DNA from: a virus
IMG/VR virus record: IMGVR_UViG_3300045988_099631
Span: 48,492 to 112,491 of that record
Reading direction: 5' to 3' (one strand)
DNA length: 64,000 nt
Both the position numbers and the translations under genes were made by a program. The first letter of the stretch is position 1; each line of letters starts with the position of its first letter. This document shows, one piece after another, positions 37,507-37,664 of this stretch. Under the pieces are notes generated by a model, which searched no databases, was not told the origin of the DNA, and worked only from the letters and a program-made list of their open reading frames with translations.

Positions 37507-37664
37507 GGATGCGTGGCCGAGTGGAAAGGCAGCAAGGGTATGCGGTGCAGGAAAGCGCGACACACTCAAACCTATTGGGGTTGAAGAAGCCACCTCGGAC
37601 GGGAACAAAGCTCGTCGCATACTGCCTGCACCATGCTGGGTTCAAATCCCAGCCGCATCCACCA
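37507..37664 (+). other. 158-nt tRNA-like element: type-II-like 5' end, T arm, CCA, but a roughly 90-nt irregular arm in place of the anticodon arm
   Basis: GGATGCG-TG-GCCGAGTGGAAAGGC ... GGTGCAGG(37545)...CCTGCACC ... CTGGG-TTCAAAT-CCCAG-C-CGCATCC-A-CCA. Confidence 0.5.

What the first reader, a model, noticed from the sequence alone, without database searches (positions are those of the whole stretch)
37507..37664. 158-nt tRNA-shaped RNA with a roughly 90-nt arm replacing the anticodon arm
The 5' end GGATGCG-TG-GCCGAGTGGAAAGGC is a textbook class II (Leu/Ser/Tyr-like) acceptor plus D arm. The 3' end CTGGG-TTCAAAT-CCCAG-C-CGCATCC-A-CCA gives a perfect 7-bp acceptor, a T arm, discriminator A and an encoded CCA. 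Between them I cannot place a 5-bp/7-nt anticodon stem-loop. Instead an 8-bp helix GGTGCAGG/CCTGCACC (or alternatively GTATGC/GCATAC) closes an irregular insert of about 75 nt containing GCGAC/GTCGC. It could be an intron-containing or otherwise non-canonical tRNA. It could also be a tRNA-like processing or CCA-adding handle, or part of a larger RNA.
Basis: seen in the sequence. Interest (0 to 1): 0.68.

Follow-up and report, generated by a model that had tools for sequence, protein, structure and literature searches.

The report
Phage tRNA look-alike with giant arm
Among the ordinary tRNA genes of an uncultured bacterial virus sits a 158-base gene with a tRNA's ends, D arm and T arm but a large, strongly conserved arm where the anticodon arm should be, so it is most likely a tRNA mimic that does not decode, and its job is unknown.

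Summary
Window 37507-37664 (+) has a 7-bp acceptor stem, a class-II-type D arm, a T arm, discriminator A and an encoded CCA. About 100 nt lie between them with no usable 5-bp/7-nt anticodon arm. ARAGORN (default) and Rfam do not call it.

It is a real gene-like module in the array tRNA-Gly-(Pro)-X-Gln-Met of a temperate siphophage family. I found about 45 intact copies with sharp ends. Copies are 94-98% identical even where the array's tRNA-Met is 78% identical and a neighbouring protein only 52%. All 24 substitution types seen keep base pairing, including compensatory changes in the D and T stems.

The T stem has 6 bp, so acceptor plus T stem make 13 bp (7/6). A 105-nt relative (X') has the same 7/6 layout.

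I found no evidence for an intron: no ribozyme match, no unique spliced tRNA and no intron-less allele. The arm is as conserved as the tRNA-like parts.

In sister phages a TnpB transposon sits inside the arm.

Best reading: a non-decoding tRNA mimic derived from a class II tRNA, comparable to phage T4 RNAC. Its function is unknown and it is dispensable.

The parts
37507..37664 (+). Whole tRNA-like RNA 'X' (158 nt; 159 nt in most sister phages)
   Evidence: Conserved unit with sharp ends. Covariance model R1 scores 200-210 bits in 41 loci.
37507..37513 (+). Acceptor stem, 5' strand GGAUGCG (pairs with 37654-37660)
   Evidence: 7 bp, invariant; pairing probability about 1.0.
37516..37530 (+). 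D arm, class-II type: 3-bp stem GCC/GGC plus G13.A22, with loop AGUGGAA containing the GG of G18G19
   Evidence: L051 has the compensatory change C11-G23 to A-U, and L187 has G10-C24 to G.U. Most variants have A15, with U two bases before the T stem.
37532..37543 (+). 12-nt segment GCAAGGGUAUGC between the D arm and the big helix. It can form a 3-bp mini-hairpin GCA/UGC and may be a collapsed anticodon arm.
   Evidence: pairing probability 0.76-0.92. The C37U change in L001 keeps pairing.
37544..37632 (+). Large arm, 89 nt, closed by the 8-bp helix B GGUGCAGG/CCUGCACC (37544-37551 with 37625-37632)
   Evidence: probability 0.98. C119U and C42U give G.U pairs. 96-98% identical where neighbouring genes are about 80%.
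37538..37544 (+). Alternative helix A, 5' strand GUAUGCG. It pairs with 37616-37622 (CGCAUAC) and cannot form at the same time as helix B.
   Evidence: Enforcing A gives -55.9 kcal/mol against -61.1 for B. The substitutions fit both helices.
37557..37561 (+). Inner helix GCGAC, pairing with GUCGC at 37614-37618
   Evidence: probability about 0.95. A54G gives A-U to G.U.
37566..37575 (+). Site in the arm where sister phages carry a 1266-bp TnpB element, and where X is truncated in L183/L184
   Evidence: The right end of the element reads ..GTGTCAAT|GGGGTTGAAGCAGCC, so its guide RNA would read into X.
37575..37598 (+). Central hairpin UUGGGGUUGAAGNAGCCACCUCGG. Its loop is the most polymorphic spot, and it is the target of the TnpB guide.
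37599..37615 (+). Anticodon-arm-sized hairpin ACGGG-AACAAAG-CUCGU (5 bp, 7 nt). The loop is polymorphic, AA(C/U)AAA(G/A/U). Its 3' strand competes with the inner helix.
   Evidence: It would read CAA/UAA (Leu) but has A rather than U at position 33.
37635..37653 (+). T arm with a 6-bp stem GCUGGG/CCCAGC and loop UUCAAAU
   Evidence: U131-A145 in the window is G-C elsewhere, a compensatory change, and two further changes give wobble pairs. X' has the same 6-bp stem with its own compensatory pair.
37654..37664 (+). Acceptor 3' strand CGCAUCC, discriminator A, encoded CCA
35285..35358 (+). tRNA-Gly(UCC), first gene of the array (context)
37917..37993 (+). tRNA-Gln(UUG), next gene of the array (context)
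38975..39049 (+). tRNA-Met(CAU), last gene of the array (context)
28877..30105 (+). The window's own TnpB gene (28877-29980) plus a tail resembling its guide RNA (omegaRNA). It is the same element family that interrupts X in sister phages.

Best explanation
X is a functional tRNA-like RNA that does not decode. It descends from a class II (Leu/Ser-type) tRNA gene.

Shown:
- It is a discrete, conserved gene module inside a phage tRNA array.
- It has the same leader type and encoded CCA as its tRNA neighbours.
- Its acceptor, D and T stems are kept by compensatory and wobble substitutions.
- Its T stem is one pair longer than normal, giving a 7+6 = 13 bp acceptor/T helix.
- It has no canonical anticodon arm.
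- About 100 nt of sequence-constrained RNA occupy the anticodon/variable side.

Inferred:
- It is co-transcribed with the tRNAs.
- It is cut out by RNase P and the 3' tRNA-processing enzymes.
- It folds into the tRNA 'top half': acceptor/T helix plus the D-loop/T-loop elbow (G18G19 and UUCAAAU are present).
- It is therefore recognised by proteins that read tRNA shape and the NCCA end but not the anticodon.
- The extra base pair and the missing anticodon arm keep it off the ribosome.

Most likely mode of action (inference, roughly 25-30% for the specific version): a tRNA mimic. One option is a decoy or sponge for a host enzyme or immune toxin that attacks tRNA acceptor ends or class II tRNAs. 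The other is a chargeable substrate of an anticodon-independent synthetase that never decodes. Features pointing to LeuRS: A73, A15 with a U at the position-48 equivalent, and G18G19. Features pointing to SerRS: G1-C72, G2-C71 and a long extra arm. The conserved arm would supply the specificity.

Because it is nearly invariant across diverged phages, it also serves as a homing site for a TnpB transposon.
For: - Not a canonical tRNA.
- tRNA-type gene boundaries and array position.
- Sharp module ends in at least four different 5' contexts and two 3' contexts.
- Structure under selection: in 15 distinct variants 100% of pair cells are paired, with double changes in the D and T stems. With L187, L188, L001 and L005 added, none of 24 substitution types breaks a pair. 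Random placement achieves that in 5e-5 of trials for the MFE model and 1.5e-4 for the alternative.
- Conservation exceeds that of neighbours. X is 95-96% identical and its arm 96-98%, where the HU, MazF-like and desulfurase genes are 79-81%. X is 93.7-98% identical against 78% for tRNA-Met in loci whose desulfurase is 52-72% identical at protein level.
- The 7/6 geometry is shared with the 105-nt relative X', which has its own compensatory T-stem pair and is followed by the same downstream hairpin.
- Identity-element reasoning rests on PMC9976931. tRNA-Leu lacking the anticodon and variable arms is still charged if A73 and the D/T-loop contacts are kept. [quoted passage not shown]
- Precedents: T4 RNAC and RNAD come from the T4 tRNA region and their roles are unknown. 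RNAC (139 nt) carries a GGUUCGAAUCC T arm and, like X, has no Rfam family. Irregular tRNA polycistrons occur near toxin-antitoxin systems and transposons.
Against: - No expression, end-mapping or charging data exist.
- Divergence is so low that only about 11 substitutions fall in stems.
- The near-identity across diverged phages could reflect recent lateral spread of the module rather than selection.
- X is dispensable. TnpB interrupts it in several sister phages (L001, L004, L005 and L021/L026), where model R1 finds only split, low-scoring matches (L038, L043, L045, L059). It is truncated in L183/L184. It is absent from L053, L058, L062, L172, L177 and L178.
- The fold of the arm is unresolved. 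Helices A and B exclude each other, and every substitution fits both.
- No partner protein was identified. The neighbouring PLP enzyme is an ordinary IscS/DndA-type cysteine desulfurase, not a tRNA-dependent enzyme.
Confidence: 0.55

Rival explanations
1. X is an intron-containing or insert-containing precursor that matures into a decoding tRNA. One candidate product is tRNA-Leu(CAA/UAA): remove about 67 nt (nt 26-92) so that the D arm joins the 93-109 hairpin. The other is ARAGORN's weak tRNA-Met(CAU) model with a 75-nt intron. A protein endonuclease plus an RNA ligase would have to do the cutting and joining, because the insert is too small to self-splice.
For: - Nt 93-109 is the only anticodon-arm-sized hairpin in the RNA.
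- Its position-34 equivalent is polymorphic C/U, giving CAA or UAA, both Leu. That fits the class II D arm and A73.
- Deletions d_23_90 to d_29_93 give a 91-94-nt 'tRNA-Leu(caa)' at 95% of ARAGORN's threshold.
- ARAGORN at 80% of threshold gives tRNA-Met with an intron.
- A MazF/PemK-like endoribonuclease gene is conserved next to the array. From my own knowledge, MazF products (2',3'-cyclic phosphate and 5'-OH) are RtcB substrates.
Against: - No model passes default thresholds. The Leu model has A33 and an unstructured 19-nt variable region. The Met model has G33 and two G-U pairs.
- The deletion scan gives Gln, Val, Asp, Gly and Arg solutions at full threshold, so there is no unique answer.
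- A position-26/27 intron is known only for archaeal BHB splicing (from my own knowledge), and I saw no bulge-helix-bulge motif by eye in the alternative fold; no dedicated search was run.
- No ribozyme match.
- The 'intron' is as conserved as the 'exons'.
- No intron-less allele among the fetched loci.
- The 13-bp acceptor/T helix is itself atypical for an elongator tRNA.
Confidence: 0.07
2. X is a decaying pseudogene: a class II tRNA gene wrecked by insertion or rearrangement. It looks conserved only because the tRNA-array cassette has recently spread among co-infecting phages.
For: - Patchy presence and absence, truncation in L183/L184 and interruption by TnpB show it can be lost.
- Sister arrays contain other odd tRNA-like units and tRNAs with improbable anticodons.
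- Near-identity in phages with 52% identical neighbouring proteins fits lateral transfer.
Against: - None of 24 substitution types breaks a pair, and there are two compensatory double changes. A neutral pseudogene should accumulate breaks.
- The intact 158/159-nt length is kept in 44 copies. The only indel is 1 nt in the D loop.
- X' keeps the same unusual 7/6 geometry independently, with covariation.
Confidence: 0.17
3. X is mainly a cis-acting processing or stability element: a tRNA-like 'punctuation' or 3' handle that lets RNase P and the 3' tRNA-processing enzymes define or protect the ends of the array transcript. It would have no trans-acting role.
For: - In most loci X is directly followed by a hairpin, AAGCGCC..GGCGCTT, and then a TATAAT-containing stretch, so it often ends a transcription unit.
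- Other units of the arrays are acceptor stem plus ACCA with little else that is tRNA-like, for example Z.
Against: - A handle needs only the acceptor/T minihelix. That does not explain about 100 nt of arm conserved at 96-98%, the intact D arm with covariation or the 6-bp T stem.
- In the window itself the hairpin is absent, and X is followed by 252 nt of spacer and then tRNA-Gln.
Confidence: 0.1
4. The constraint acts on the DNA. The X sequence would be kept as a recombination or homing site, either as the target of the TnpB guide RNA or as an attachment-type site, rather than as an RNA.
For: - The TnpB element is inserted at the same point in several sister phages, with its guide region reading GGGGTTGAAGCAGCC.. 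of X.
- The breakpoint in L183 is at the same place.
- An integrase gene lies 2.5 kb upstream.
Against: - A DNA site does not predict pair-preserving substitutions spread over five helices, the tRNA-like leader and CCA, or the parallel architecture of X'.
- From my own knowledge, guide-directed elements exploit conserved targets; they do not create the conservation.
- The central motif is absent from 185,579 reference bacterial and archaeal genomes apart from 2 chance matches, so it is not a copy of a host attachment site.
Confidence: 0.05

Closest known systems
Bacteriophage T4 RNAC (species 1 RNA, 139 nt) and RNAD, small stable RNAs of the T4 tRNA gene cluster
   Same: - Encoded inside a phage tRNA array, on the tRNA strand, and longer than a tRNA.
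- RNAC carries a canonical T arm (CCGGG-UUCGAAU-CCCGG) next to its 3' end, with a large structured insert.
- No Rfam family, and only a weak tRNA-Sec-clan match, exactly as for X.
- Function still unknown (PMC3014915 and PMC9697503).
   Different: - No sequence similarity to X.
- The T4 genomic sequence lacks an encoded CCA and a clear 7-bp acceptor stem plus class II D arm.
- The host is a proteobacterium and the phage is lytic.
Irregular tRNAs and allo-tRNA polycistrons (Mukai et al. 2017, PMC5389517; reviewed in PMC7609411)
   Same: - tRNA-shaped genes with non-standard acceptor/T geometry and long extra arms.
- Found in Clostridia and phages, arranged in polycistrons, often beside toxin-antitoxin systems and transposon genes.
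- Several are not used in translation.
- X sits in an array with other irregular units, next to a MazF/PemK-like gene, and is hit by TnpB.
   Different: - Allo-tRNAs have 8/4 or 9/3 geometry (12 bp) and a normal anticodon arm.
- X has 7/6 (13 bp) and no anticodon arm.
tRNA-Sec
   Same: A 13-bp acceptor/T domain and a long extra arm. It is the best, though sub-threshold, Rfam clan match.
   Different: - The geometry is 8/5 or 9/4, not 7/6.
- tRNA-Sec has a 6-bp D stem and a UCA anticodon arm, and X has neither.
- X scores 15.5 bits against a gathering score of 47.
- No selA, selB or selD genes were seen among the ORFs scanned.
Class II tRNAs (Leu, Ser, Tyr)
   Same: - D arm with a 3-bp stem and G13.A22.
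- G18G19.
- A73 as in Leu and Tyr.
- G1-C72 and G2-C71 as in bacterial Ser.
- A stable helix ending 2 nt before the T stem, where a class II variable arm sits.
- LeuRS and SerRS ignore the anticodon.
   Different: No functional anticodon arm. The 'variable arm' would be 89 nt instead of 13-21 nt. The T stem has 6 bp.
tmRNA tRNA-like domain
   Same: Acceptor stem, T arm and ACCA, with a long helix in place of the anticodon arm.
   Different: - X has A3-U70, not the G3.U70 alanine determinant.
- X has a full D arm.
- I saw no plausible tag reading frame when reading the arm by eye.
- At 158 nt it is too short.
- ARAGORN's tmRNA mode and Rfam find nothing.
Bacterial Y RNA (YrlA) and the Bacillus cereus pseudo-tRNA 'tRNA-Other'
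   Same: Non-decoding RNAs that mimic tRNA shape. YrlA: PMC4201824, listed. tRNA-Other: cited in PMC5389517.
   Different: - From my own knowledge, in YrlA the RNA ends lie at the anticodon-side stem and the 'acceptor' is closed, which is the opposite topology. It is also linked to a Ro60 gene, which was not seen among the ORFs scanned.
- tRNA-Other is tRNA-sized.

Membership tests
Canonical tRNA (Rfam RF00005 / ARAGORN) | Cloverleaf that scores above the model threshold | tested here: not met
   No RF00005 match even at E<=10. ARAGORN at default settings finds nothing.
Canonical tRNA (Rfam RF00005 / ARAGORN) | 5-bp anticodon stem with a 7-nt loop (U33), one base after the D arm | tested here: not met
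   Only nt 93-109 is a 5-bp/7-nt hairpin. It lies 67 nt after the D arm and has A33.
Canonical tRNA (Rfam RF00005 / ARAGORN) | 7-bp acceptor stem, D arm, T arm with T-loop, discriminator and CCA | tested here: met
   The exception is the T stem, which has 6 bp.
tRNA with a self-splicing group I intron | Group I catalytic core (P3-P9), over 200 nt, inserted in the anticodon loop | tested here: not met
   The insert is at most 90 nt. No intron or ribozyme family appears at E<=10.
tRNA with a protein-spliced (BHB-type) intron | Removing one segment yields a unique, high-scoring cloverleaf, and the splice sites lie in a bulge-helix-bulge | tested here: not met
   The deletion scan gives many unrelated solutions. 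The intron model appears only at 80% of threshold. I saw no BHB motif by eye in the alternative fold; no dedicated search was run.
tRNA with a protein-spliced (BHB-type) intron | A spliced mature species exists | not testable with these tools
   This needs small-RNA sequencing or a Northern blot.
tmRNA | tRNA-Ala-like domain with G3.U70, plus a tag reading frame and pseudoknots | tested here: not met
   X has A3-U70. ARAGORN -m finds nothing. Rfam gives only a 9-bit fragment in a sister locus.
tRNA-Sec | 8/5 or 9/4 acceptor/T domain, long D stem, UCA anticodon | tested here: not met
   X has 13 bp but as 7/6. Its D stem has 3 bp and there is no UCA arm. RF01852 scores 15.5 bits against 47.
Allo-tRNA / irregular tRNA (Mukai 2017) | 12-bp acceptor/T domain as 8/4 or 9/3, with an anticodon arm | tested here: not met
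   X is 7/6 = 13 bp and has no anticodon arm.
Allo-tRNA / irregular tRNA (Mukai 2017) | Genomic association with other irregular tRNAs, toxin-antitoxin genes and transposon genes | tested here: met
   Units X', Y, Z and W occur in sister arrays. A PemK/MazF-like gene lies 1.7 kb downstream. TnpB is inserted in X.
T4 RNAC-type stable RNA of phage tRNA clusters (no formal family) | Encoded within a phage tRNA array on the tRNA strand; 120-160 nt; T arm near the 3' end; not a decoder | tested here: met
   This is an analogy of organisation only; I saw no sequence similarity, and no alignment was run.
T4 RNAC-type stable RNA of phage tRNA clusters (no formal family) | Accumulates as a stable processed RNA during infection | not testable with these tools
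   No expression data are available for this uncultured phage.
TnpB guide RNA (omegaRNA) | Scaffold that overlaps the 3' end of tnpB and the transposon right end, followed by a guide | tested here: not met
   X shares no similarity with the omegaRNA tails of the window or L001 elements. X is the target or flank, not the scaffold.

The most novel reading that the evidence does not exclude
X, its 105-nt relative X' and possibly the other irregular units Y, Z and W would form a new class of phage-encoded tRNA mimics with a previously undescribed 7/6 (13-bp) acceptor/T geometry. They would be matured like tRNAs and recognised, perhaps even charged with Leu or Ser, by anticodon-blind enzymes. They would never decode. 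Instead they would work as decoys against host toxins that target tRNA, or as amino-acid carriers outside translation. A still more radical reading is not excluded, at about 5%: X is a precursor of tRNA-Leu(YAA) whose 67-nt insert at position 26/27 is removed by a protein endonuclease and ligase, for example the conserved neighbouring MazF-like RNase plus host RtcB. That would be protein-dependent tRNA splicing in a bacterial system.
Probability: 0.25. Interest if true: 0.75.

Novelty: new variant of a known kind. Interest (0 to 1): 0.55.

Why it matters
Phage tRNA clusters have been known for 50 years to contain 'extra' stable RNAs, such as T4 RNAC and RNAD, whose function is still unknown. 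X is a cleaner example. It has an unmistakable tRNA top half, an unusual 13-bp 7/6 helix and no anticodon arm. Its appended arm is more conserved than a real tRNA in the same array.

X therefore gives a defined, testable candidate for a phage tRNA mimic. Is it charged? Does it bind LeuRS, SerRS, RNase P or a defence toxin?

It also shows that standard tRNA finders and Rfam miss a whole set of tRNA-shaped genes (X, X', Y, Z, W) in gut or anaerobe phages.

Finally, it is a natural case of a TnpB element using a conserved non-coding RNA gene as its guide-RNA target.

Tried and rejected
1. **Insert as transposon leftover.** I first thought the insert was the remains of the ends of an IS605/TnpB element, because L001 has tnpB inside X. 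Rejected: the omegaRNA scaffold ends at ..GTGTCAAT, upstream of the X sequence. X shares no similarity with the element ends in the window or L001. The TnpB is a secondary insertion into an existing arm.

2. **Target-site duplication.** ATGC flanks GGTGCAGG...CCTGCACC, which could mark a miniature transposon. Rejected: removing it leaves 65 nt that are not a tRNA.

3. **Brute-force intron search** (1254 deletions through ARAGORN). No unique product.

4. **Neighbouring class V aminotransferase as a tRNA-dependent PLP enzyme** (SepCysS/SelA-like) acting on a 13-bp tRNA-like substrate. Rejected: the best solved relatives are IscS/NifS/DndA/SspA cysteine desulfurases.

5. **Mimicry of the 23S rRNA L11-binding region** (a 16/22 match to GGCUUAGAAGCAGCCAUCAU recalled from memory). 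Dropped: the matching C is polymorphic in X (A/C/U at nt 81), and there was no BLAST or Rfam support.

6. **Search for diverged homologues for covariation.**
   - Four exact and degenerate motif scans of IMG/VR.
   - Three architecture patterns in IMG/VR.
   - One scan of reference genomes, which gave 2 chance matches.
   - One metagenome scan.
   - GenBank phages.
   - Synteny walks through desulfurase homologues down to 52% identity.

   The result was only two discrete, nearly invariant types, X and X'. Helix A against helix B therefore could not be settled.

7. **H-type pseudoknot of helices A and B in X.** Rejected on geometry: 0-nt and 2-nt connecting loops.
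Full report
**1. The observation**

Window 37507-37664 (+) reads GGAUGCG-UG-GCCGAGUGGAAAGGC-A-...-AU-GCUGGG-UUCAAAU-CCCAGC-CGCAUCC-A-CCA.

- ARAGORN at default settings calls only tRNA-Gly (35285), tRNA-Gln (37917) and tRNA-Met (38975) in the window.
- Rfam at gathering thresholds gives the same three.
- At E<=10 on 37300-38000 the region gets no tRNA match. It gets only a 15.5-bit tRNA-Sec alignment (gathering score 47) and a 19-bit mascRNA match to the T arm.
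- The minimum-free-energy fold (-61.1 kcal/mol, z = -2.43) is a cloverleaf-like shape: a 7-bp acceptor, a 3-bp D stem, a 3-bp mini-hairpin, a long arm closed by GGUGCAGG/CCUGCACC, and a 6-bp T stem.
- A scan for 5-bp/7-nt hairpins finds only the T arm and nt 93-109.

The description is therefore right. One addition: the 'extra C' before the acceptor 3' strand pairs with G129, so the T stem has 6 bp and the acceptor/T stack has 13 bp.

**2. It is a gene-like module in a phage tRNA array**

The window is a temperate siphovirus. It encodes a tape-measure protein, an integrase, Rha, Ltp and a CHAP/SH3 lysin.

All four RNA genes (Gly, X, Gln, Met) are on the + strand. All have an A/U-rich ..AUAC/..ACAU/..AGAU leader and an encoded CCA.

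Exact and degenerate motif searches of IMG/VR returned about 45 contigs with X, always in the order Gly-(Pro)-X-Gln-Met. Homology to the window begins exactly at G1 and ends exactly at A158. The flanks fall into at least four 5' contexts and two 3' contexts. Among 2.2 Mb of fetched loci there are 44 intact copies of 158/159 nt and no short 'intron-less' version.

GenBank phages contain nothing similar. In 185,579 reference genomes the central motif gave only two chance matches.

**3. Selection**

The variants differ at few positions. On the model-based alignment of 41 copies (15 distinct), 100% of pair cells are standard pairs. The informative changes are:
- C11-G23 to A-U in the D stem.
- U131-A145 to G-C in the T stem.
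- Wobble-compatible changes in the T stem, helix B (C119U) and the inner helix (A54G).

Adding L187, L188, L001 and L005 gives 24 substitution types, none of which breaks a pair. Random relocation of the same changes achieves that in 5e-5 of trials for the MFE model and 1.5e-4 for the alternative.

X is 95-96% identical, and its 89-nt arm 96-98%, in loci whose HU, MazF-like and desulfurase genes are 79-81% identical at DNA level. In L187 and L188 the desulfurase is 52% and 72% identical at protein level. There X is still 93.7% identical to the window copy, while tRNA-Met is 77.9%.

The arm is thus at least as constrained as the tRNA-like parts, which is not what I would expect of a passive intron or junk insert. 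The caveat is that such uniformity could also come from recent lateral spread of the cassette.

**4. Not an intron, as far as sequence can tell**

- The insert is too short for a group I intron, and no ribozyme family matches.
- ARAGORN reports an intron model only at 80% of threshold: tRNA-Met(CAU) with a 75-nt intron, G33 and two G-U pairs.
- Deleting every segment of suitable size (1254 constructs) yields 'tRNAs' for Gln, Val, Asp, Gly and Arg at full threshold and many more just below it. The acceptor, D and T arms carry the score, and no unique anticodon arm exists.
- The most interesting candidate is the 93-109 hairpin, ACGGG-AA(C/U)AAA(G/A/U)-CUCGU. Its polymorphic middle would read CAA or UAA (Leu), matching the class II D arm and A73. 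However, it has A33, lies 67 nt from the D arm, and competes with the better-predicted GCGAC/GUCGC helix.

**5. Architecture**

Two helices exclude each other: B (38-45/119-126, 8 bp, MFE) and A (32-38/110-116, 7 bp, 5 kcal/mol worse). All substitutions fit both.

- With B, the layout is D arm, 12-nt remnant, big arm, 2 nt, T arm. This is the topology of a class II tRNA with a collapsed anticodon arm and a giant variable arm.
- With A, the arm starts one base after the D arm and ends 5 nt before the T stem.

A 105-nt relative, X', was found by the covariance model and by pattern scans (L181, L185, L190, L191 and seven metagenome contigs).

- It has the same first three acceptor pairs (G-C, G-C, A-U) and a similar D loop.
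- It has the same 6-bp T stem, with its own U-A/C-G covariation.
- Its discriminator is A or G.
- It is followed by the same downstream hairpin as X.
- It carries a 10-13-bp hairpin after a 5-nt linker, followed by 12 unpaired nt.

The 7/6 tRNA-like scaffold with a non-anticodon arm is therefore a recurring design, not a one-off accident.

**6. TnpB**

In L001 and related contigs (L004, L005, L021, L026 and others) a 1266-bp element replaces nt 60-69 of X. It encodes a 407-aa TnpB that is 85% identical in DNA to the window's own tnpB at 28877-29980. The window gene carries the domains HTH_OrfB_IS605, OrfB_IS605 and Cas12f1-like_TNB.

The omegaRNA-like tail of the element ends ..GUGUCAAU and runs straight into GGGGUUGAAGCAGCC of X. 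The guide would therefore match intact X alleles of competing phages.

L183 and L184 retain only nt 1-69 of X, broken at the same spot. By inference from the known biology of TnpB, X serves as a conserved homing target. These phages also show that X is dispensable.

**7. What it most likely does**

Shown: a conserved, structured, tRNA-flanked RNA gene that cannot decode.

Inferred: it is matured by the tRNA-processing enzymes. It presents a tRNA top half (G18G19 and UUCAAAU for the elbow, NCCA end) on a 13-bp helix. It acts as a tRNA mimic.

Identity elements, as reviewed in PMC9976931, make LeuRS and SerRS the plausible synthetases.
- For LeuRS: A73, A15 with a U at the position-48 equivalent, and G18G19. 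Minimal tRNA-Leu lacking the anticodon and variable arms is still charged.
- For SerRS: G1-C72, G2-C71 and a long arm; recognition is independent of the anticodon.

Whether X is a decoy for a tRNA-directed host enzyme or toxin, a charged but non-decoding carrier, or something else cannot be decided here. The neighbouring PLP enzyme is an ordinary IscS/DndA-like desulfurase, so I dropped the idea of a tRNA-dependent amino-acid conversion.

**8. Comparison with known systems and novelty**

- The closest analogue is T4 RNAC/RNAD. These are stable RNAs of the T4 tRNA cluster with unknown roles. RNAC carries a T arm and a large insert and, like X, has no Rfam family.
- The genomic setting resembles the 'irregular tRNA' polycistrons near toxin-antitoxin and transposon genes, but X fails their 8/4 or 9/3 definition.
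- X shares the 13-bp domain with tRNA-Sec but none of its other features.

I rate it a new variant of a known kind (a phage tRNA-like stable RNA or irregular tRNA) of moderate interest. It would be higher if charging or an anti-defence role were shown.

Noticed in passing
window 28877-30105 (+); L001 1650-2915; L053 about 7000-8250: A family of TnpB-only IS605-type elements with omegaRNA-like tails. One copy is in the window. An 85% identical copy lies inside X in sister phages. Another lies 50 nt upstream of tRNA-Gln in L053/L062. The right ends read ..GGGGAGTGTCAC / ..GGGAAGTGTCAAT / ..GGGGAGTGTCAA.
   Followed up: partly
L183 4521-4589 and L184 (same coordinates): A truncated X: nt 1-69 are identical to intact X in L187, then unrelated sequence follows. 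The breakpoint coincides with the TnpB insertion and target site, which suggests repair after guide-directed cleavage.
   Followed up: partly
L181 8095-8199; L185 3964-4068; L191 (- strand) 7297-7401; L192-L198: X', a 105-nt tRNA-like RNA with 7/6 geometry that ARAGORN and Rfam do not call. It has three variants. It shows T-stem covariation (U-A/C-G), a discriminator of A or G, and a Ser-like acceptor GGAGAAG/CUUCUCC. It occupies the same array slot as X.
   Followed up: partly
L003 9531-9598 (-); L058 8379-8446; L173 8135-8202; L177 8521-8588; L181 8370-8435: Unit Y, a 66-68-nt tRNA-like RNA without a D arm. It has acceptor GCGGC.., a T arm and NCCA, plus an inner stem with a 10-nt loop containing GAAGAGCA. 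It is conserved over a wider range of phages than X and is not called by ARAGORN or Rfam.
   Followed up: partly
L003 about 9453-9546 (-); L181 8437-8530; L183 3162-3232: Two further irregular units. Z (about 94 nt) has a 7-bp acceptor and ACCA but no T loop, and G1-C72 becomes A1-U72 between phages. W (71 nt) has GGGAAAA/UUUUCCC, a T arm and ACCA, with no D arm or anticodon arm.
   Followed up: no
L191 (- strand) 7082-7155; L181 7611-7681; L191 6508-6578: Sister arrays contain tRNAs with odd anticodons. One has a tRNA-Pro-like body carrying UGA (called Ser). ARAGORN also calls 'Asn(att)' and 'Asp(atc)', both with A34. These are possible missense or decoy tRNAs, or decaying genes.
   Followed up: no
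window 39077-41051 (+), and all relatives down to 52% identity: Conserved synteny: integrase, tRNA array, HU, a 181-aa PemK/MazF-like protein, and an overlapping IscS/DndA/SspA-like cysteine desulfurase. A PAPS-reductase-domain protein at 8111-8980 (-) resembles DndC, from my own knowledge. This hints at DNA phosphorothioation or RNA thiolation by the phage.
   Followed up: partly
window 37665-37916 (+): The 252-nt spacer between X and tRNA-Gln has no convincing ORF and folds with z = -2.45. Part of it (GGAAUGAAACCUCCGCAUCUGGCAGCGGUGUCGUCGGGUUGAUA) is conserved in L058, where it follows unit Y instead of X.
   Followed up: no
window 37239-37496 (+): This 85-aa ORF with no family match is an indel relative to most sister phages. 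In those, X follows directly after ..ctaagcgagaagacggccaaaat. The indel boundary lies exactly at the 5' end of X.
   Followed up: no
L114 (- strand) 6384-6547: This unrelated IMG/VR contig, caught by the architecture pattern, carries what looks like a tRNA-Tyr(GUA) with an insert of roughly 75 nt beside the anticodon and a perfect 7-bp acceptor. It shows that the pattern search can find real insert-bearing tRNAs.
   Followed up: no
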